Source: an uncultured Methanosarcinales archaeon | GTDB taxonomy: Archaea > Nanobdellota > Nanobdellia > Woesearchaeales > ARS49 | NCBI GenBank assembly: GCA_964508495.1 | Contig: CAZDUA010000004.1 | Coordinates: 290-64,289 of the forward strand | Length of the DNA: 64,000 nt | Reading direction: 5' to 3' | Shown: positions 7,209 to 42,192 of the stretch, piece by piece | Position numbering within the stretch: position 1 is the first letter of the stretch | How the letters are laid out: each line of letters opens with the position of its first letter | Position numbers and translations under genes: made by a program | Notes under the pieces: generated by a model | Told to the model about the DNA's origin: nothing | Databases searched by the model: none | The model's input: the letters and a program-made list of their open reading frames with translations, nothing else

Positions 7209-8327
7209 ATGAGATATAATTTCATTATTACGCTCTTTGTATTGACACTATTTGTTTTATCCGCTTGCCAACCTGTTGCACAAGCACCAACAAGCAAGAC
7301 CTTCTGCAATCCACCGTATTACGAATGGCAACGGGGACAATGTTGCCTGGATAAAAATTCGAATAACGTATGTGATCAAGATGAGTTGACAAAGGAAACA
7401 CCACCCCCAACTATTGTTGAAATTGAAGAAATCAATCGTACAGAAGAAGTTTCTCCTCCTCAACTTACCACTCCATCTCAAAAAACGCTCATGCAACAGT
7501 TGATAGATCGAGCGCCAACCGCTTATTACTTTTGGAATTTTGATGATGATGCTGGCGCACTAGTAGTCGGAGATAGAAGAAGCGACGGATATGTTGAGTA
7601 TTATCTTGCTGAATTTCTCGTTCCTATGAGTTGGGATGTCAATACAAGACAGGTTCTTTTCACTGCTCCAAAGCAAATTGATGAGTGGTGGTACAACATG
7701 AAGCAAGGCTTATCACCACCGAAAACGCAAGCAGGCCAGGTGAAATATTTCCCCACTTATTTTGAGTTGAATTTGACGGGCAACCCTGACCTGGATTTGG
7801 CAATCATCCCAGAACAATTCAAAAAATATTATTGGGCTGCTGGAATGGAGAAGAAAGTGCAATCTGAGAAATACAGGGGTGCTCGTCTTCCTCTTGTGTT
7901 CTTTAGTGCATTCTATACTAAAGGACCGATTGATATGATGAAAGAATACGCCCTTGAAGAACCAATCAAAATAGAGGAAAAACCAAAAATCATTTCAGTT
8001 GCGAGTAGACAAATAACTGCGAATTTATCAATTTACTATAAGAAAAAAGAAGACCCGTCAAAAATACTCGTATTCAGTTATGATCCCGTACGTAAAGTCA
8101 TGATAAGGATAGAGGAACAAAATGACAAGGGTCAAATGATAAAACGCACTGACTTTGACTTTGATACGACAGTAACCTATCAAGGTAAGAAAAATACGCC
8201 AATTCTTGAAAAGTTTGTACGACCATTCCCCGATTACATCATCATAACACCTGAATATTACGATGAATATAAAGAAGCAGTTGAAAGCGACAGCAGAATT
8301 GAGTATTTGAAAGATAGAGGAGGATAA
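7209..8327 (+). CDS. predicted lipoprotein, paralog of 41185..42192
   Basis: Signal peptide with lipobox LSAC followed by QPVAQ. Alignable along its length with the 335-aa protein at 41185..42192 (LIDRAPTAYYFW vs LLDKAPTTYWF; MMKEYA vs LMKEYA; DFDFDT vs YDFDT). Confidence 0.6.
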   Translation: MRYNFIITLFVLTLFVLSACQPVAQAPTSKTFCNPPYYEWQRGQCCLDKNSNNVCDQDELTKETPPPTIVEIEEINRTEEVSPPQLTTPSQKTLMQQLIDRAPTAYYFWNFDDDAGALVVGDRRSDGYVEYYLAEFLVPMSWDVNTRQVLFTAPKQIDEWWYNMKQGLSPPKTQAGQVKYFPTYFELNLTGNPDLDLAIIPEQFKKYYWAAGMEKKVQSEKYRGARLPLVFFSAFYTKGPIDMMKEYALEEPIKIEEKPKIISVASRQITANLSIYYKKKEDPSKILVFSYDPVRKVMIRIEEQNDKGQMIKRTDFDFDTTVTYQGKKNTPILEKFVRPFPDYIIITPEYYDEYKEAVESDSRIEYLKDRGG

Positions 8328-31166: not shown

Positions 31167-31289
31167 TTTAGTTATTGGTAGAATGAAGTAATTCATCCCA
31201 CCCTAATACGCTCTCTTGAACTCGGGCGTTATTACACGAGGAAAGGGGGTTGTTTATAAAGGTTTCGTCAGAAGGTTTCGTCAGAGTTA

Positions 31290-31300
31290 GATTTATAAGG
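31290..31300 (+). promoter_or_regulatory. TATA-like box for tRNA-His
   Basis: gatttataagg lies about 28 nt upstream of the tRNA 5' end. Confidence 0.5.
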
Positions 31301-31323
31301 AATTACTATTGCCATAAACGTAT

Positions 31324-31395
31324 GGCGGCCGTGGTGTAATGGCAGCATAGGGGACTGTGACTCCTCTGACCCGAGTTCGATTCTCGGCGGTCGCC
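31324..31395 (+). tRNA. tRNA-His (GTG) with genome-encoded G-1
   Basis: G-1 plus GCGGCCG...CGGTCGC acceptor stem, anticodon arm GGGGA-CTGTGAC-TCCTC, T-arm CCGAGTTCGATTCTCGG, discriminator C. Confidence 0.9.
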
Positions 31396-31397
31396 CT

Positions 31398-31554
31398 CAA
31401 ACTTTCAGAAAGTTTGATCAAATTGCTTCTTGTTCTCATGCGAGAAGCATTTCATCACTGTTTGCTTTGCAAACAGGATTAAGACTCTTCTCTCATACTC
31501 ACAATGTCGCAAAAATCTCAATAAGACCGCAGAGTTCCGACAACCGCAGTTGGC
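31398..31554 (+). repeat. non-coding hairpin-rich element, copy A (3' of tRNA-His)
   Basis: A core of about 120 nt shared with 33894..34011. Flanked by gattctcggcggtcgccctca (31379-31399) and gatactcggcggtcgcactca (31555-31575). Confidence 0.8.
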
Positions 31555-31572
31555 GATACTCGGCGGTCGCAC

Positions 31573-32070
31573 TCAGCTTTTCTTTCTTAAATGAACAACC
31601 GCGCCAGGAAGAACATAACCAAGAACGTAAACAGCCCCAACAAGAATTGGATTATGAGGAGGAGTGGCGAGATTTAACAAAATAATCAACTTGTTGGAAA
31701 GAACTGCAAAAATACCGACATTAATCAAAGCAAGACAAGGAAGGAAAATGGACGCAATAATGTGCTGGTCCTTTTTCAACTTCTCAATACCATGCAAGAT
31801 GAAACTAAACACCCAGCCAAAACTCGCGCCGATAAAGAAAAGAGAGAAGTAAAGAGCGGCGCCTTTCAAAATGAGCAGGAAAGGAACAAGAACAACAGAG
31901 ACAATAAAATTTGCTACAATAGCAAGGAAAAGAAGAAGCCAATACAAAGTGCCATCAACAGTCTTAACCCAGCTCGACTTCCTTCTTTCAGCCTCTCCAA
32001 GAATCTTCTCAGTCTTAACAGCAAGTTCAGGAGTCCAATCTTTGTGCATATCTTTGTGCATGTGAGTCAT
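31573..32070 (-). CDS. integral membrane protein (165 aa, about 4 TM)
   Basis: Hydrophobic helices. Overlaps the stop of the MinD-like gene (ATGA), suggesting an operon. Confidence 0.5.
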   Translation of the reverse strand: MTHMHKDMHKDWTPELAVKTEKILGEAERRKSSWVKTVDGTLYWLLLFLAIVANFIVSVVLVPFLLILKGAALYFSLFFIGASFGWVFSFILHGIEKLKKDQHIIASIFLPCLALINVGIFAVLSNKLIILLNLATPPHNPILVGAVYVLGYVLPGAVVHLRKKS

Positions 32071-32795
32071 GGAACGATACCAAGCTTAGCCAAAAGAGAC
32101 ACGGCTCGAACAGGAGATTGATATTCCAAGTTCATAAGTTTTGCGGCAATCTGCTTCAAAGAAGTGCTGGCCTGCAGTTCAGGATGAAATTCAACAATAG
32201 AATAACCATGACGCAAAGCCTCCCTCATCAAAGGCTCAGCAGGAATAACGCCGAGCAACGGCTTATGAACGACCTGCATAATGTTGTCAGTAGATAAGTC
32301 AACACCATCATCATGCATGCGATTGATTATAATGCTATGAACATTGCACAACTTAGAAAGCTTCTGAACTTCCAAAACACTCGGAAAATCAGGCTGGGCG
32401 ACAAGGATAGTCTCACACTTAGTATCATACCATTTCACGTCAAGAGTAGGAACGTCAATGATAACTACATCCGCGAGCTTTTTCAGCTGAGGCAACAAAA
32501 TGGAAGGATGCGGAACGTCAACAAAGTTCAAACCGCTCAACAACAATTTAATTCCTGAAGGACGCTGATAAATTGCGTCCTTTAATGAACGAGCACCCAA
32601 CAAAACATCCTGAATGGTATGATTTGCTAAAGGCATGCCAACATGATGGCAAAGCTTAGGAGTCTTCAAATCACCATCAACAAGAAGAACATCAAAACCA
32701 AAATGGCGCAAGCAAAAAGCCAGATTTTTAGCTATCGTAGTCTTGCCCTGACCTGCATTTCCAGATATGAGAAAAACCTTATTCACTTGGTCCAT
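32067..32795 (-). CDS. MinD/ParA-family P-loop ATPase
   Basis: Deviant Walker A ISGNAGQGKTTIAKNLA and VLLVDGDLKTP. Confidence 0.8.
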   Translation of the reverse strand: MDQVNKVFLISGNAGQGKTTIAKNLAFCLRHFGFDVLLVDGDLKTPKLCHHVGMPLANHTIQDVLLGARSLKDAIYQRPSGIKLLLSGLNFVDVPHPSILLPQLKKLADVVIIDVPTLDVKWYDTKCETILVAQPDFPSVLEVQKLSKLCNVHSIIINRMHDDGVDLSTDNIMQVVHKPLLGVIPAEPLMREALRHGYSIVEFHPELQASTSLKQIAAKLMNLEYQSPVRAVSLLAKLGIVP

Positions 32796-33252
32796 GCATC
32801 ATCTTAGAAACGTAATTTAAAAATTCTTTGGTACGCTCAAAATAATCAGAAATAATGTCTATCGTAATTTCGATTTTTTCTCCTTCTAAATGAGCCGTCA
32901 TGGTAACATGGCGCCTGTATTCCTGCGTACGGTCAAACTTTGCCTTGTCAATCTTGCGAAGAACAAGATAAAAATCACAGAAATCGGTAATAAAACGGTC
33001 AGAAGAATAAAGTGTTGTAACCTGCTCGAACTTAACACGAGGCAACTCAGAACTCTCAGCAGCCCTATTCTGAGACTTTGCATAGTCCACCAGAGTATCC
33101 AGGCCAAAACCAATAGTGTTAATCAAACGCTCAATAATACTCTTAATAACGTCAACAGTACGAGTATACTTCAAACTAACCGCGATACTATGATCTGCCC
33201 GTTTCAATTCCTGAAAGGCCAGCTGTAATGATTCTTCCGGACTCATACACAC
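32779..33252 (-). CDS. hypothetical helical protein (157 aa)
   Basis: Intact ORF overlapping the MinD-like gene's start. No motif recognised. Confidence 0.45.
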   Translation of the reverse strand: MCMSPEESLQLAFQELKRADHSIAVSLKYTRTVDVIKSIIERLINTIGFGLDTLVDYAKSQNRAAESSELPRVKFEQVTTLYSSDRFITDFCDFYLVLRKIDKAKFDRTQEYRRHVTMTAHLEGEKIEITIDIISDYFERTKEFLNYVSKMMHGPSE

Positions 33253-33342
33253 TCCGAGAAAAATGCCTCAACCGATGTCTTCATACACTCACTACGCCAC
33301 TAGCGGCGCAATATACGAGAAAAGACGATGAAATATATAAAT

Positions 33343-33672
33343 TCACTGTAGATTAAGTATGGCCTGAGCCAAATCGCCCTTGGAAGCCTTAATGGCGGCC
33401 AAAGCGTCCTCTTTAGAAGCCTTAGTCTGGTCCATAACAGTCTGAATGTCCTCATCCTTAATATCAGGCTCAGAAGAACGAGCTTTTTCTATTGCAGCGC
33501 CCGTTATTTGCCAAGTTTCCTGGCCCATCATGTTCACCTTAGCAACCTGAGGGTTCTGGATAACGATATCCTTGTCAGAACAACGGATAATAACTTCATT
33601 AGCATCAACTTCCTGCTGTTGAATGCCCATACGCTGCATTGCCTTAGCCACATCACGAGGATTAAGCTTCAT
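33343..33672 (-). CDS. nac: nascent polypeptide-associated complex protein (NAC, with UBA)
   Basis: MKLNPRDVAKAMQRMGI...IQNPQVAKVNMMGQETWQI NAC domain plus a C-terminal UBA-like SKEDALAAIKASKGDLAQAIL. Confidence 0.85.
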   Translation of the reverse strand: MKLNPRDVAKAMQRMGIQQQEVDANEVIIRCSDKDIVIQNPQVAKVNMMGQETWQITGAAIEKARSSEPDIKDEDIQTVMDQTKASKEDALAAIKASKGDLAQAILNLQ

Positions 33673-33845
33673 GCCAGTCCTAGAAAGGAAGAACCCCAAA
33701 TGTGCAATGCTACAACAATAAGCATGATTACGACTGCAAAAGTGATTATATGACCTGGCTTGAACTCAATCTTACTATGATAGTCATCAAAATAAGTAGT
33801 AATACCCGCAGTACTCATCGGCATTCTCGTCTTGTCTTGCGCCAT
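33669..33845 (-). CDS. secG: Sec61-beta/SecG-type translocon subunit
   Basis: 58-aa protein: STAGITTYFDDY followed by a single C-terminal TM helix. The ORF-track N-terminal extension runs into repeat copy B. Confidence 0.65.
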   Translation of the reverse strand: MAQDKTRMPMSTAGITTYFDDYHSKIEFKPGHIITFAVVIMLIVVALHIWGSSFLGLA

Positions 33846-33893
33846 AGTGTTTGGTTTTTCGTTCTGATATAAAAATATAGTGGGGTTTGGCAC

Positions 33894-34032
33894 CAAACTT
33901 TCGGAAAGTTTGATCAAATCGCTCCTCGCTCGGGACTCGAGAAGCATTCTGATAAATCCCTAACGGGATGTTCAATACTCTTCTCTCGCCACTCACGATG
34001 TCGCGAAACCCGATTCTAGCTTTAAATATAAA
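33894..34032 (+). repeat. non-coding hairpin-rich element, copy B (3' of RNase P RNA)
   Basis: Shares its core with 31398..31520. Flanked by gtggggtttggcaccaa (33880-33896) and gcggggttgggcacgaa (34033-34049, the RNase P RNA 3' end). Confidence 0.8.
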
Positions 34033-34363
34033 GCGGGGTTGGGCACGAATAAGCTGCCTTTTGTACGCCTCCAACCAATGATAATCATCGGTGATGGTAT
34101 TACCCATCTGGACAGGCGAATTTGGGCATTCAACTAAGCGCACGTTCTGTGCTTGCACCGGCGAGGGCTATCCGTTTCATCCAATCGCGTAAGAACGTCC
34201 GCGCGTATGCCCGTGTCGCCACAGGAGTCACGCTTCCTCCTACTTACGCAAGGTCCGTTTCTGTGATGGAGCCAACCATTACTGATTCTCTTTGCAGAGT
34301 CGCCTTTTGATGGTGGGCAGACTTTCCTCAGCATTCGCCGAAGCCCAATACCTGCCCAACCCC
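34033..34363 (-). ncRNA. rnpB: RNase P RNA
   Basis: The minus strand begins GGGGUUGGGCAGG and ends CGUGCCCAACCCCGC (P1). It contains CR-I GCUGAGGAAAGUCUGCCC, GGAUGAAACGG, and the CR-IV/V-like ACAGAACGUGCGCUUAG. A TATA-like box lies upstream. Confidence 0.85.
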
Positions 34364-34394
34364 AATATAAACCTATATACTGCAGTATATAAAT

Positions 34395-35489
34395 TTATTG
34401 CTTTGAGAATACGAGTATAAACAGTTCTTCAGCGCCCTGCATTACTTTTCTTTCGCTTTCAACCTTGAATTTGAACTCTTCAGCTTTTTTCTTCAGAATG
34501 TCAACGCCGCGCTTCATGACAACACAGATTTTGCCGGACTTTTTCAAGATGAACTCTGCTTGATAGAAGACTTGATGATAAATTTTCTCAACAGTCGCAT
34601 CAGCAATACTCCTGCCTGGCTGGACAGGAAGAGTTATTATGCGGTCGAGAAAATTCTTGCCAAACTTGGCATCAAGCCATTTCATATCAGCCCTGCTGAA
34701 CTCAATAGATTTAACCACGCCAGCAATCTTGGCATTCTTTCTAGAAGCAGAAACGTGCTTGAAATTATCATCCATGGCAATAATGGTTCCTTTGAAATCA
34801 GTCTCTTCGTCTTTCAATTCATACTTGAAATCAGGAAGACGAGAAAAACCAAGCCTTTCCTTGCCAAACTTATGAGAAGAAGTATTCGTGGCAAACAAAG
34901 CAGCCTCTATTGGAATAATTCCATGACGACAGAACGGGTCAAGAAGAGACTGCTTAGTTTCATAACCAGAAATCGGCAACAAAGCAGCAGCAATATTACC
35001 CTTCAAAGCATCAGTGCCAAGAAAAATACGATAATCTCTACGGCCAAGATCAATACCAGAAAAGTCAACACCCAAATAACCATCATTACCGTCAATCAAA
35101 AGGAAGAAAATAGTCTGAGGGCTTTTACGCTCAATAGTTACTTTATATTTCTCAACAAGAGCACGATTAAGCACAAGCTCAACATCAAAAGAAGTGAAAT
35201 CGTGCTTGCCTGTCCTTTCACATACTAAGACGGCAGTTTTGTCGATAAATGGAAGGTCTTTCAAGATTTCAGGGCCTGGAGTTCCTGACAGTTTGAACGA
35301 AGACAAAAGAAGAATAACTTTAGAAAAAGTACGACCATGATAACACAAGTCAACCAAGTCCTGCTCAGACTTACAAGAAAAAAACACTTTGCCAGGAGAA
35401 ATTTTAATATTTGAAGCAGAAATTAATTTTTTGATTTCATCAGCACTAACGTCCTCTAAGCCGATATGCGTTAGAACAAGCCCGTTCAT
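34395..35489 (-). CDS. THUMP-domain class I RNA methyltransferase (Trm14/RlmL-like)
   Basis: [17 protein letters not shown] (SAM motif I region), IIAMDDN, and an N-terminal THUMP-like region. Confidence 0.6.
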
Positions 35490-41184: not shown

Positions 41185-42192
41185 TTAATCTCCTTCTATG
41201 TAATCAATCCACTTTTCATAATCTTTGGGCGTAACTATTATGCTGTTTTCAGGTATAGTTAATTTAGCATCGGATAGCTTGACATTTTTTGCACCTTGTT
41301 TACCATAAACTGTATCGAAATCGTAAGAAGTTCTAGTCACAAGCTTTCCATCTTTATCCAATTCATCTATTACTAACGGCAGATGGAATTGATTATCAAA
41401 GCGGAACACAATAAATTGCCCGAGTTTTGCTTTGTGCGAAAATTTGATTGAAAGAGAAGATTCAACACTTCCACCCGCCCACGATAAAATTTGCGTCGTG
41501 GTATCAATTTCCGCAGGAGCATTGGTAGCATATTCTTTCATAAGATCAACTGGGCTTTTAACATAGAACGGTTCGAAAAGACGAATAAGTTCGGACTCCT
41601 TCGCATCATACCAATATTTGTTGAATTCTATTGGGATCTTTGTCTTGTCAATATTCTTATCTCCAGTGAAATTGAGATTGAAGAATGCAGGCAGATAAAC
41701 GTTTTTCATTCCTTTGCTCTTCATTTCTTCCTTTGTCTTATAACTATTCCACCAATTTTCTTCAATTTCGCAACAGTTCACATAGATACTCTTTGTTTCT
41801 ATATCCCAGTACATCAGTCGATAGAAATAATTCCAGTACTGGTCATACCAAAATCCAGTGCTACGCTTTGTTCCTTGCACCGCAACACCTATTTGACCAT
41901 CACTGAACCAATAAGTAGTAGGTGCCTTATCCAAAAGTTCCTGCATTTTTGTTTTTCCAATTGCGGGTGGTGGAGTTTCAGTAGAGATTGGAGGAGGAGT
42001 TTCATCCTCGATAGGTTTTGTTTCAATAGGTGTTTGCACTGGACAATCTTGAATGGACGACGCGGTACTCCCATCCCAACATTGAACAATGACTTTTTCA
42101 ACAACCTTTTCTGGTACTTGTTGAACTTGAGGTGCACAGGATACCAAAAGAACTAGTAAAAACAATGTAAAAACCGATGATAACGCCCGCAT
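41185..42192 (-). CDS. predicted lipoprotein, paralog of 7209..8327
   Basis: Lipobox LVSC followed by APQVQ, and full-length similarity to the 372-aa protein. Confidence 0.6.
   Translation of the reverse strand: MRALSSVFTLFLLVLLVSCAPQVQQVPEKVVEKVIVQCWDGSTASSIQDCPVQTPIETKPIEDETPPPISTETPPPAIGKTKMQELLDKAPTTYWFSDGQIGVAVQGTKRSTGFWYDQYWNYFYRLMYWDIETKSIYVNCCEIEENWWNSYKTKEEMKSKGMKNVYLPAFFNLNFTGDKNIDKTKIPIEFNKYWYDAKESELIRLFEPFYVKSPVDLMKEYATNAPAEIDTTTQILSWAGGSVESSLSIKFSHKAKLGQFIVFRFDNQFHLPLVIDELDKDGKLVTRTSYDFDTVYGKQGAKNVKLSDAKLTIPENSIIVTPKDYEKWIDYIEGD

What the first reader, a model, noticed from the sequence alone, without database searches (positions are those of the whole stretch)
31379..31575. 155-bp hairpin-rich non-coding insert after tRNA-His, bracketed by a 21-bp imperfect duplication of the tRNA 3' end
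Seen directly: tRNA-His ends in gattctcggcggtcgccctca (31379-31399). After 155 bp the same 21-mer recurs as gatactcggcggtcgcactca (31555-31575, 19/21 identical). That second copy is followed by cttttctttctt, which looks like the displaced tRNA terminator. Just inside the right repeat there is also a broken copy of the T-arm (gagttccga vs gagttcga). The intervening DNA has no credible ORF. It has three hairpins: caaacttt-cag-aaagtttg, which overlaps the palindrome tttgatcaaa; gcttcttg...cgagaagc; and ctgtttgc-ttt-gcaaacag. It also has a conserved single-stranded tract, actcttctctc..actcacaatgtcgc. The first roughly 120 nt recur at 33894-34011. Inference: this is the footprint of a miniature non-autonomous element that inserts at the 3' ends of stable-RNA genes, leaving an att-like duplication or an unusually long target-site duplication. 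I do not recognise this architecture from any described archaeal MITE or integrative element, but I cannot search.
Basis: partly seen in the sequence, partly recalled or inferred. Interest (0 to 1): 0.78.

Follow-up and report, generated by a model that had tools for sequence, protein, structure and literature searches.

The report
Small mobile element with long duplications
The 155-bp insert after tRNA-His is one copy of an apparently undescribed ~120-nt folded mobile element of DPANN archaea that lands at gene ends and duplicates 12-103 bp of its target, which no known family of small prokaryotic mobile elements does.

Summary
tRNA-His (31325-31396) is followed by a ~120-nt module (31398-31516). 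The module is bracketed by a 21-nt (29-nt with gaps) imperfect repeat of the tRNA 3' end. A second copy lies at 33894-34010.

New points:
- The second copy is also bracketed by a ~35-nt repeat, this one of the RNase P RNA 3' end.
- The module has 64 strong copies in 20 Woesearchaeota/Nanoarchaeota genome assemblies and five more on metagenome contigs. Its fold, a 5' hairpin plus a long irregular stem, is supported by covariation.
- In 32 well-resolved copies the flanking repeats are host sequence, different at each locus, 12-103 nt long (median 36.5).
- A related genome has the same S13 / tRNA-His / membrane-gene locus without the element, a clean 176-nt indel.
- The hairpin end is precise and the other end is variable. 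There are no terminal inverted repeats, no Rfam match, and no transposase, integrase or reverse transcriptase nearby.
- Targets are tRNA 3' ends, tRNA D-loops, one tRNA intron, RNase P, and stop-codon regions of protein genes.

Verdict: a real, recently active, non-autonomous mobile element with long, variable target-site duplications. The insertion mechanism is inferred, most likely nick-primed copying starting at the hairpin end.

The parts
31325..31396 (+). tRNA-His(GTG), intact. This is the target gene of copy A.
   Evidence: ARAGORN; Rfam tRNA at 57.1 bits.
31371..31399 (+). Left copy of the target-site duplication: the tRNA-His 3' end plus TCA.
   Evidence: (D2).
31398..31516 (+). Element copy A. 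P1 hairpin 31398-31416; linker ATCAAA 31417-31422; long irregular stem 31423-31512. Within the stem, TTGC/GCAA pair at 31423-31426 with 31509-31512, GAGAAG/CTTCTC pair at 31442-31447 with 31487-31492, and the apical hairpin is 31458-31476.
   Evidence: Covariance model hit at 121.9 bits; structure counts; fold z -4.81.
31517..31543 (+). Variable 3' tail of copy A. It lacks the family's GGTCTAG motif. Its last 19 nt (31525-31543) pair with the right repeat copy in the hairpin 31525-31568.
   Evidence: Tail comparison; fold -23.4 kcal/mol, z -3.3.
31544..31575 (+). Right, displaced and decaying copy of the duplication (core 31555-31575). Its last 3 nt, TCA, are the stop codon of the convergent membrane-protein gene 31573-32070 on the - strand.
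   Evidence: comparison with the empty site.
33862..33896 (+). Left, displaced copy of the duplication flanking copy B. It is a degenerate copy of the antisense of the RNase P RNA 3' end plus about 20 nt of trailer. The last 3 nt overlap the start of the element.
   Evidence: 28/36 identical; 3-nt overlap.
33894..34010 (+). Element copy B. Same architecture as copy A, but with a different apical hairpin (ATCCC/GGGAT) and a compensated P2 helix.
   Evidence: Covariance model hit at 94.7 bits; alignment.
34014..34049 (+). Right copy of the duplication for copy B. It overlaps the true 3' end of the RNase P RNA.
   Evidence: inverted repeat I4 is the RNase P P1 helix, 34035-34050 with 34348-34363.
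34037..34361 (-). Archaeal RNase P RNA, the target gene of copy B. It is convergent with the element.
   Evidence: Rfam RF00373, 126 bits.

Best explanation
**What it is.** The insert after tRNA-His is one copy of a family of ~120-140-nt non-coding mobile elements, apparently undescribed and non-autonomous, found in DPANN archaea (Woesearchaeota/Nanoarchaeota).

**Anatomy.**
- A perfect 8-9-bp hairpin sits at the extreme 5' end: CAAACTTT-loop-AAAGTTTG.
- The linker ATCAAA follows.
- Next is a ~95-nt irregular stem-loop with conserved internal loops and a swappable apical hairpin.
- The element ends in a short variable tail, often GCGCAAnnCAGGTCTAG.

**What is shown.**
- It inserts into new sites and duplicates 12-103 bp of the target.
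- Because the duplication is long, an insertion inside a gene's last or first tens of nucleotides still leaves one intact gene copy. Surviving copies therefore sit flush against gene ends in these compact genomes.
- In the window it landed at the zero-spacer junction between the tRNA-His 3' end and the stop codon of a convergent gene. It duplicated the last 21-29 nt of the tRNA.

**What is inferred (about 0.35-0.4 on its own).**
- Insertion uses two uncoupled strand breaks rather than a transposase acting on both ends at once.
- A 3'-OH at the hairpin-side junction is joined to, or primes copying of, an element strand beginning exactly at the hairpin.
- The other junction forms at a variable distance.
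- This could be target-primed copying of an RNA or ssDNA intermediate. It could also be use of the element strand as a structured, flap-resistant primer at the replication fork.
- The enzyme is encoded elsewhere in the genome or is a host enzyme.
- tRNA-linked copies are co-transcribed with the tRNA on the + strand. RNase Z cleavage would release the element's 5' end.
For: **Multi-copy family.** 57 loci in 20 genome assemblies match a three-block pattern, against 0.15 expected by my own estimate. The covariance model finds 64 strong copies there, plus five on metagenome contigs.

**Conserved fold.** 90.6% of cells are paired, against 40-52% for slid partners. 19 pairs carry compensatory changes. 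The covariation score is 0.323 against 0.122 for shuffles, reached by 0 of 500.

**Locus-specific flanking repeats.**
- They are resolved in 32 copies, 12-103 nt long, median 36.5. Nine are at least 95% identical.
- Examples: L043 68/68, L013 44/44, L055 60/61.

**Empty site.** L045 carries the same S13 / tRNA-His / membrane-gene locus without the element, a clean 176-nt indel.

**Asymmetric ends.**
- Hairpin side (n=34): flush in 17, 1-6 extra nt in 7, at least 3 nt of overlap with the target in 5 against 0.6 expected, p=3e-4.
- Tail side: ends 15-75 nt after CTCTTCTC.

**No DNA-transposon hallmarks.**
- No terminal inverted repeats.
- Neighbours and the window's large ORFs are housekeeping genes.

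**Recurrent use of the same sites.**
- tRNA-His in two genomes with opposite tRNA orientation, RNase P in two genomes, and the DUF7502 and YHS gene ends in three genomes each.
- The duplication lengths differ between these genomes.
- Element identity is 73-88%, while adjacent 4-fold sites are 45-77% identical. It is higher in 9 of 10 pairs and about equal in one.

**Position at tRNA genes.**
- Every tRNA-linked copy examined is co-oriented with its tRNA gene.
- The element starts two bases after the last called tRNA base in window A, L019, L001 and L013, and three bases after the hand-parsed 3' end in L056.
- Or it sits at nt 18-20 of the D-loop.
- Or it sits in a 37/38 intron.
Against: - No enzyme, RNA intermediate or autonomous partner was found. 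Only about 0.9 Mb of DNA was in hand and no complete genome.
- Helices are almost purely Watson-Crick. In the four strong variable helices there are 8 G-T against 9 A-C among about 640 pair cells. The folded strand, and whether it folds as RNA or DNA, therefore cannot be told. This fits a DNA-level structure at least as well as an RNA.
- There is no poly-A or other known retroposon tail.
- The orientation rules differ between targets. The hairpin end faces tRNA 3' ends, while the tail end faces protein-gene stop codons in 34 of 44 cases. One simple priming model does not obviously predict this.
- High conservation at shared sites could mean a host function rather than mobility.
- A 176-nt indel flanked by repeats could in principle be a deletion in L045.
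Confidence: 0.72

Rival explanations
1. It is a MITE moved by a DDE transposase of the IS1634/IS1549 kind, the only prokaryotic ISs known to make long, variable direct repeats.
For: IS1634 and IS1549 produce direct repeats of 8-514 bp, and no mechanism has been proposed for them (PMC2266710). The repeats here are 12-103 nt and variable.
Against: - No terminal inverted repeats: 3.7 of 16 matching positions against 4.0 for shuffles.
- The 3' boundary is variable, and truncated tails abut the repeat directly.
- No transposase was seen next to any copy or in the window.
- Filler nucleotides and microhomology at one junction are not typical of concerted strand transfer.
Confidence: 0.1
2. It is primarily a host small RNA gene. 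It would be a processed sRNA made from tRNA trailers, leaders and introns and from mRNA 3' ends, and its spread and flanking repeats would be incidental.
For: - Copies at shared loci are 73-88% identical, while adjacent 4-fold sites are 45-77% identical.
- Strong covariation.
- Every tRNA-linked copy examined is co-oriented with its tRNA. One copy lies in a tRNA-Arg 37/38 intron.
- Nanoarchaeum equitans has C/D sRNAs immediately downstream of tRNAs, in a tRNA intron and overlapping mRNAs. Their mobility is unexplained (PMC3491384).
Against: - No C/D, H/ACA or other Rfam signature at E up to 10.
- There are 4-8 or more divergent copies per genome with swappable apical hairpins.
- There is no strand signal from wobble pairs.
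- In protein-gene contexts the element lies antisense to the orientation seen at tRNAs.
- Function and mobility are not exclusive, so this rival mostly adds to the best explanation rather than replacing it.
Confidence: 0.25
3. It is the remnant of a tRNA-targeting integrative element (virus or plasmid). The repeat would be attL/attR left by a tyrosine or SSV-type integrase, and the interior would have been deleted.
For: Duplication of a tRNA 3' end is the classic integrase signature. L055 has a different 86-nt insert at the same tRNA-His 3' end, with a perfect 23-nt repeat.
Against: - The same ~120-nt body is flanked by unrelated host repeats at more than 30 loci, including protein-gene ends, promoter regions and RNase P. 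There is therefore no element-borne att core.
- No integrase in the window.
- No hits in viral contigs for the element body.
Confidence: 0.03
4. It is an ordinary fixed tRNA-His trailer or terminator, or an assembly artefact.
For: A T-rich tract follows the right repeat copy. Hairpins are common downstream of RNA genes.
Against: - The orthologous site in L045 is empty.
- There is a second copy in the window and 60 or more elsewhere, in independent assemblies.
Confidence: 0.01

Closest known systems
MITEs (miniature inverted-repeat transposable elements) of archaea and bacteria
   Same: Small, non-coding, multi-copy, non-autonomous, strongly folded, and flanked by direct repeats of the target.
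   Different: - No terminal inverted repeats.
- The duplication is 12-103 nt and variable, not a fixed 2-10 bp.
- One end is imprecise.
- No cognate IS was found.
IS1634 / IS1549 (IS4-related DDE insertion sequences)
   Same: Long direct repeats of variable length on insertion, 8-514 bp (PMC2266710).
   Different: Those are 1.5-2 kb ISs with inverted repeats and a transposase gene. This element has neither, and it has a variable 3' end.
SINEs and other target-primed (TPRT) retroposons of eukaryotes, including snoRNA/U6 retrocopies
   Same: - Duplications of variable length.
- One exact end and one truncated or extended end.
- Filler nucleotides and microhomology at junctions.
- Preference for tRNA genes and gene ends as safe sites.
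- Dependence on an enzyme encoded elsewhere.
   Different: - No A-rich tail and no demonstrated RNA intermediate or reverse transcriptase.
- Non-LTR retrotransposition is not known in prokaryotes.
- About 80% of DPANN reverse transcriptases are of the DGR type (PMC8632793).
Mobile C/D box sRNAs of Nanoarchaeum equitans
   Same: A DPANN lineage in which small RNAs sit immediately 3' of tRNAs, inside a tRNA intron, and overlapping mRNA ends. Their mobility is suspected but unexplained (PMC3491384).
   Different: No C/D boxes here. The element is about twice as long and has a rod-like fold. Flanking duplications were not reported for the C/D sRNAs.
REP/REPIN and IS200/IS605-derived palindromic elements (PATEs)
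   Same: Hairpin-based extragenic repeats. The two arms co-evolve, so pairing stays almost purely Watson-Crick.
   Different: Those leave no target duplication and insert next to a fixed short motif. Here the duplications are long and the target bias is only weak, CTTC..CA(A)|T.
tRNA-gene integrating elements (att duplication by integrases)
   Same: A duplicated tRNA 3' end brackets the insert.
   Different: The repeat is not carried by the element. It differs at every locus, and most targets are not tRNAs.

Membership tests
MITE (DDE-transposase dependent) | Terminal inverted repeats at both ends | tested here: not met
   The first 16 nt were compared with the reverse complement of the last 16 nt in 16 well-bounded copies. 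Mean 3.7 matches, against 4.0 +/- 1.7 for shuffles.
MITE (DDE-transposase dependent) | Target-site duplication of fixed, family-specific short length | tested here: not met
   12-103 nt, median 36.5, in 32 copies.
MITE (DDE-transposase dependent) | A cognate autonomous IS with the same ends | tested here: inconclusive
   None was found among neighbours of copies or in the window. No complete genome was available to search.
IS1634/IS1549-type insertion | Long direct repeats of variable length | tested here: met
   literature range 8-514 bp.
IS1634/IS1549-type insertion | DDE transposase gene and inverted-repeat ends | tested here: not met
   No inverted-repeat ends. No transposase in the DNA held.
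Integrase-mediated tRNA att duplication | The same att core carried by all copies of the element | tested here: not met
   The flanking repeats are unrelated host sequences at each locus.
Integrase-mediated tRNA att duplication | Integrase gene within the element | tested here: not met
   The element is ~120 nt and non-coding. No integrase in the window.
SINE / target-primed retroposon | Variable-length duplication, one exact end and one variable end | tested here: met
   Of 34 hairpin-side junctions, 17 are flush and all 34 lie within +6/-8 nt of the hairpin start (the script kept only alignments ending within -10/+8). The tail side ends 15-75 nt after CTCTTCTC.
SINE / target-primed retroposon | Filler nucleotides or microhomology at junctions | tested here: met
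   7 of 34 junctions carry 1-6 extra nt. 5 of 34 overlap the target by at least 3 nt, against 0.6 expected, p=3e-4.
SINE / target-primed retroposon | A-rich or partner-derived 3' tail | tested here: not met
   No A-rich tail at either end. No partner element is known, so a partner-derived tail cannot be judged.
SINE / target-primed retroposon | RNA intermediate and reverse transcriptase partner | not testable with these tools
   No transcript data and no complete genome were available.
IS200/IS605 PATE or REP/RAYT element | No target duplication; insertion next to a fixed tetra- or pentanucleotide | tested here: not met
   Long duplications are present. There is only a weak compositional bias at the junction.
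DGR template/variable repeat pair | Mismatches confined to adenines of one repeat copy | tested here: not met
   Of 127 mismatches, 70 are transitions and 57 transversions, spread over all four bases in both copies.
Any Rfam family (including C/D, H/ACA, ribozymes, group II intron domains) | Match to a curated covariance model | tested here: not met
   No relevant match at the gathering score or at E up to 10 over 31250-34450.

The most novel reading that the evidence does not exclude
These elements would be the first prokaryotic analogue of SINE-like, nick-primed copy-and-paste elements. Alternatively they would be a new 'hairpin-first' insertion mechanism, in which a structured strand is joined at its terminal hairpin to a free 3' end and the second junction forms tens of nucleotides away. 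The 19-21-nt terminal hairpin module would be the mobility determinant. It is shared by many other small inserts in both archaeal and bacterial metagenome contigs.
Probability: 0.27. Interest if true: 0.9.

Novelty: new variant of a known kind. Interest (0 to 1): 0.74.

Why it matters
- **Insertion without gene loss.** DPANN archaea have tiny, gene-dense genomes with almost no intergenic space. An element that duplicates tens of nucleotides of its target can insert inside gene ends without destroying them. That is a neat solution to living in such a genome and a source of gene-end and promoter duplications.
- **Mechanism.** The combination of variable duplications up to ~100 nt, one exact hairpin end, one ragged end, and junction fillers with microhomology is the hallmark of uncoupled, primer-based insertion. 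That is well known in eukaryotes but not established in prokaryotes. If confirmed, it would add a mechanistic class to prokaryotic mobile DNA.
- **sRNA mobility.** It would make testable the long-suspected but unexplained mobility of small RNAs in Nanoarchaeota.
- **Annotation.** The family explains otherwise puzzling partial tRNA and RNase P duplications in these assemblies. The covariance model built here can annotate it.

Tried and rejected
- **Rfam.** No family matched at the gathering score or at E up to 10.
- **Viral contigs.**
  - The element body gave no hits.
  - The hairpin alone hit one contig, L059. Its genes (Hsp70, asparagine synthase, Ulp1 protease) look like those of a giant virus, and it carries a tandem of the palindrome only. 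I judged it unrelated.
- **DGR template/variable repeat idea.** Rejected, because the mismatches are not adenine-specific.
- **C/D and H/ACA sRNA.** Rfam found no matching family. By eye I saw no conserved boxes and no pseudouridylation pocket.
- **Integrase att site.** Rejected, because the repeats differ at each locus.
- **Terminal inverted repeats.** Absent.
- **Strand assignment from G-U against A-C pairs.** Uninformative: 8 against 9.
- **Search for a linked enzyme.**
  - Clustering 446 ORFs from all loci found only orthologous housekeeping genes.
  - The window's 30 largest uncharacterised ORFs are housekeeping.
  - Two paralogous proteins with no Pfam hit (7209-8327 and 41185-42192) read as lipoproteins by eye, with a signal peptide followed by Cys.
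- **Source contig.** The look-up of encoding contigs returned only a 1.4-kb contig.
- **Bacterial repeats carrying the same hairpin.**
  - BLAST against plasmids found nothing, and against phages only two unannotated 28-nt hits.
  - Their neighbours are ordinary bacterial genes.
- **Microhomology at the tail-side junction.** It could not be assessed, because the repeat alignment absorbs any such homology.
Full report
**1. Observation**

- tRNA-His(GTG) occupies 31325-31396 on the + strand.
- Its last 21 nt plus TCA (31379-31399) recur at 31555-31575 with two mismatches. No such match was found in 100 shuffles.
- A gapped alignment extends the repeat to 29 nt, 27/32 identical.
- Between the two copies lies a module that recurs at 33894-34010.
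- No Rfam family matches either copy, at the gathering score or at E up to 10.
- The window is archaeal. It holds archaeal SRP and RNase P RNAs, an S13/S4/S11/RpoD operon, GyrA, Topo VI, PCNA and primase.
- Its closest relatives among the loci found are Woesearchaeota/Nanoarchaeota MAGs, some of them mislabelled 'Methanosarcinales'.

**2. The second copy is bracketed too**

- Copy B sits next to the RNase P RNA gene (34037-34361, - strand).
- It is flanked by 33862-33896 and 34014-34049, which are 28/36 identical.
- The right copy contains the true 3' strand of the RNase P P1 helix (I4). The left copy is a decaying duplicate.
- Both window copies therefore have the layout: host repeat, element, host repeat.

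**3. A family**

- A three-block pattern taken from the two copies found 57 loci in 20 GTDB genome assemblies. By my own estimate about 0.15 matches would be expected by chance.
- All the assemblies are DPANN. Each has up to eight or more copies, a lower bound because matches had to be exact.
- A covariance model built from 38 clean copies finds 64 strong matches (72-132 bits) in that DNA. Only two of them are in the 64-kb window.
- The model finds five more on metagenome contigs.

**4. Fold**

- The consensus is a perfect terminal hairpin P1 (CAAACTTT-loop-AAAGTTTG), then ATCAAA, then a long irregular stem.
- The stem runs P2 GCGC/GCGC, P3, P4, the invariant GAGAAG/CTTCTC, a weak A-U helix, and a variable apical hairpin.
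- On the 38-sequence alignment:
  - 90.6% of cells pair, against 40-52% when the partners are slid.
  - 19 pairs have compensatory changes.
  - The covariation score is 0.323 against 0.122 for shuffles (0 of 500 reach it).
- RNAalifold independently predicts the core.
- GAGAAG/CTTCTC and P1 were fixed by my search patterns. Their invariance is therefore not evidence.
- Wobble pairs are rare and symmetric. In the four strong variable helices there are 8 G-T against 9 A-C in about 640 cells. The folded strand cannot be assigned, and a DNA-level structure is as likely as an RNA.

**5. The flanking repeats are target-site duplications**

- For each copy I aligned the left flank with the right flank.
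- In 32 copies a repeat ends at the first base of P1 and begins again just after the element.
- The repeats are unrelated host sequences, 12-103 nt long, median 36.5.
- Nine are at least 95% identical, 15 are 85-95%, and 8 are lower. Examples: L043 68/68, L013 44/44, L055 60/61, L054 92/103.
- Mismatches between the two copies are ordinary: 70 transitions and 57 transversions, on all bases. This is not a DGR template/variable pair.
- Tandem arrays of the form repeat-element-repeat-element-repeat occur in L051 and L002.

**6. Empty site**

- L045 carries orthologues of the window's genes in the same order: RNase P plus an element, then ParA-like, the membrane protein, tRNA-His and S13.
- In L045 the tRNA-His 3' end runs directly into the stop codon of the convergent membrane-protein gene, with no spacer...GGTCGCCC|TCA|AACTTTC....
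- Aligned with the window, the only difference is a clean 176-nt indel equal to the element plus one repeat copy.
- L019 has the element starting two bases after the last called tRNA-His base, as in the window. There, however, the tRNA is inverted relative to its neighbours.
- L055 has a different 86-nt insert at the same place, with a perfect 23-nt repeat.

**7. Where it lands**

tRNA 3' ends:
- The element starts two bases after the last called tRNA base at window/L019 His, L001 Ser and L013 Cys, and three bases after the hand-parsed 3' end of L056 Arg.

tRNA 5' parts:
- The hairpin-side junction is at nt 18-20 of the D-loop.
- The duplication reaches about 34-52 nt upstream, so promoter and 5' end are both duplicated.
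- Examples are L027 tRNA-Met and L162. L055 and L030 have tRNA-like sequences that ARAGORN did not call.

tRNA intron:
- One copy lies inside a tRNA-Arg(TCG) gene at the 37/38 intron position. I parsed this by hand.

Orientation and RNase P:
- Every tRNA-linked copy examined is co-oriented with its tRNA gene.
- Two copies lie at the RNase P 3' end (the window and L045).

Protein genes:
- Most copies abut protein genes.
- The tail side faces the 3' end of a convergent gene in 34 of 44 cases, p=4e-4. The hairpin side is unbiased, 20 against 21.
- In the cases checked by eye (L014, L022, L006, L007, L053, L051) the duplication begins 0-2 nt beyond the stop codon and lies inside the last codons.

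Neighbours:
- They are ordinary genes: HIT, FtsX/MacB permease, PolX, peptidase A24, DUF7502 and a YHS-domain protein.

**8. The ends are asymmetric**

- Hairpin-side junction, n=34:
  - flush in 17;
  - 1-6 extra nucleotides in 7;
  - overlap with the target of at least 1 nt in 10;
  - overlap of at least 3 nt in 5, against 0.6 expected, p=3e-4.
- The tail side ends 15-75 nt after CTCTTCTC.
  - By eye, many tails are 35-40 nt. The printed median is 32.
  - About a third of copies (20 of 63) carry a GGTCTAG-like motif.
  - Shorter tails abut the repeat directly.
- There are no terminal inverted repeats.
- The target shows only a weak bias, a pyrimidine-rich CTTC..CA(A)|T at the hairpin-side junction.

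**9. Age and recurrence**

- Copies at the same gene ends in different genomes are 73-88% identical.
- 4-fold third positions of the adjacent orthologous genes are 45-77% identical. The element is the more conserved in 9 of 10 pairs and about equal in one.
- The displaced repeat copies at such sites are still 77-85% identical to the functional copy. The duplication lengths also differ between genomes: 60 against 47 nt at the DUF7502 gene, and 35 against 16 nt at RNase P.
- Inference: either the same sites are hit repeatedly or filled alleles spread by recombination. Alternatively the element is under selection where it sits. It is not a decaying fossil.

**10. The hairpin is a shared module**

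- Of the first 80 loci only five carry the full element.
- The others have the same palindrome followed by different bodies, on contigs of 22-66% GC.
- Some of those contigs are clearly bacterial, with ECF sigma factor, MscL and VanY genes.
- Several of these other inserts are also flanked by direct repeats: L060 ~25 nt, L082 17 nt, L086 21 nt, L164 13 nt (by eye).
- A subfamily of the element has a 45-nt two-hairpin insert inside P1, and that insert itself begins with a similar A/T hairpin.

**11. Mechanism (inference)**

- A transposase acting on both ends at once is unlikely, given the variable duplications, the single exact end, and the fillers and microhomology at that end.
- An integrase is excluded, because the repeats are locus-specific.
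- The pattern fits two uncoupled breaks. A 3'-OH is joined to, or primes copying of, an element strand starting at the terminal hairpin. The second junction forms 12-103 nt away.
- Two concrete versions fit:
  - Target-primed copying of an RNA or ssDNA intermediate, as in SINEs. From literature: about 80% of DPANN reverse transcriptases are of the DGR type (PMC8632793).
  - Use of the element strand as a structured primer at the fork, with its 5' flap escaping FEN1 and being ligated. From my own knowledge, not checked with the paper tools: this route gives 5-108-bp duplications in yeast rad27 mutants.
- The only prokaryotic precedent for such repeats is IS1634/IS1549, whose mechanism is unknown (PMC2266710).
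- I give about 0.72 to 'mobile non-autonomous element with long variable target duplications'. I give about 0.35-0.4 to the nick-primed mechanism in particular.

**12. Limits**

- No complete genome, transcript data or enzyme was available.
- The orientation rules differ between tRNA and protein-gene targets. I cannot explain that with one model.
- A host function, such as a processed sRNA or a 3'-end element, is not excluded and may coexist with mobility. Compare the unexplained mobile C/D sRNAs of Nanoarchaeum equitans (PMC3491384).

Noticed in passing
L055:2100-2215 (- strand view): A different 86-nt insert follows tRNA-His in this genome. The covariance model does not hit it. It is flanked by a perfect 23-nt direct repeat of the tRNA 3' end (CGATTCTCGGCGGTCGCCCTTCT), so the tRNA-His 3' end looks like a hot spot for more than one kind of small insert.
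   Followed up: partly
L060-L179: The 19-21-nt palindrome plus linker (CAAACTTTnnAAAGTTTGATCAAA) occurs in at least 120 metagenome stretches of 22-66% GC. Some contigs are clearly bacterial (L145: ECF sigma factor, MscL, VanY). The palindrome is followed by other conserved bodies, for example ...ATCAAAACTTCAAAAATGATTCTTAATGAAGTTTCTCGACAG after a GC-rich hairpin, or ...ATCAAAAYGCTTCGC. Several are flanked by direct repeats. There is no Rfam match.
   Followed up: partly
L009, L018, L023, L046, L002, L010, L031: A subfamily of the element carries a ~45-nt insert of two hairpins inside the 3' arm of P1: AAAGTTT[CAAAAACGAAGTTTTTGAAGCCCAGCCGAACTTAGTTCGGCATGG]TTTGATC. The insert itself starts with an A/T hairpin, which looks like a nested 'hairpin-first' module.
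   Followed up: no
L056:1966-2190: A tRNA-Arg(TCG) gene that ARAGORN did not call carries a ~146-nt intron at position 37/38. The intron consists of an element copy plus about 20 nt. CTTCG in the anticodon loop can pair with CGAAG near the intron's 3' end, as in a bulge-helix-bulge site. A second element copy follows the tRNA 3' end.
   Followed up: partly
L051:3638-3933 and L002:15-310: These are tandem arrays of repeat-element-repeat-element-repeat at the end of a membrane-protein gene. The second copy in L051 has the outer helices of one subfamily and the apical domain of its neighbour, which suggests recombination or gene conversion between copies.
   Followed up: no
L059:2600-2660: An IMG/VR contig whose genes (Hsp70, asparagine synthase, Ulp1 protease) look like those of a giant virus has 2.3 tandem copies of the 25-nt palindrome plus linker, directly after the Hsp70 stop codon. 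It has no element body.
   Followed up: partly
window 31200-31245; L019:1060-1100; L045:4040-4100; L055:2470-2540: A conserved non-coding stretch (AACGCCCGAGTTC...AGCGTATT.AGGGTGG.ATGA) lies upstream of the S13 ribosomal-protein operon in all four genomes. It may be an r-protein leader. Its CCCGAGTTC can be mistaken for a tRNA T-arm fragment.
   Followed up: no
window 31259-31284 and 32038-32061 (D16 and D18): There are two perfect short tandem duplications. AAGGTTTCGTCAG x2 lies just upstream of the tRNA-His promoter region. ATCTTTGTGCAT x2 lies inside the start of the membrane-protein gene and encodes MHKDMHKD.
   Followed up: no
window 7209-8327 (+) and 41185-42192 (-); L007:764-1603 (-): This is a paralogous family of predicted lipoproteins (signal peptide followed by Cys), with two members in the window. 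The two window members have no Pfam match. The L007 member, which lies 9 nt from an element copy, was not scanned. They are not enzymes of mobility as far as the sequence shows.
   Followed up: partly
L019:5611-5708: ARAGORN calls a 98-nt 'tRNA-Pyl (CTA)' in a Nanoarchaeia MAG. It is probably an intron-containing or mis-typed tRNA rather than a true amber suppressor.
   Followed up: no
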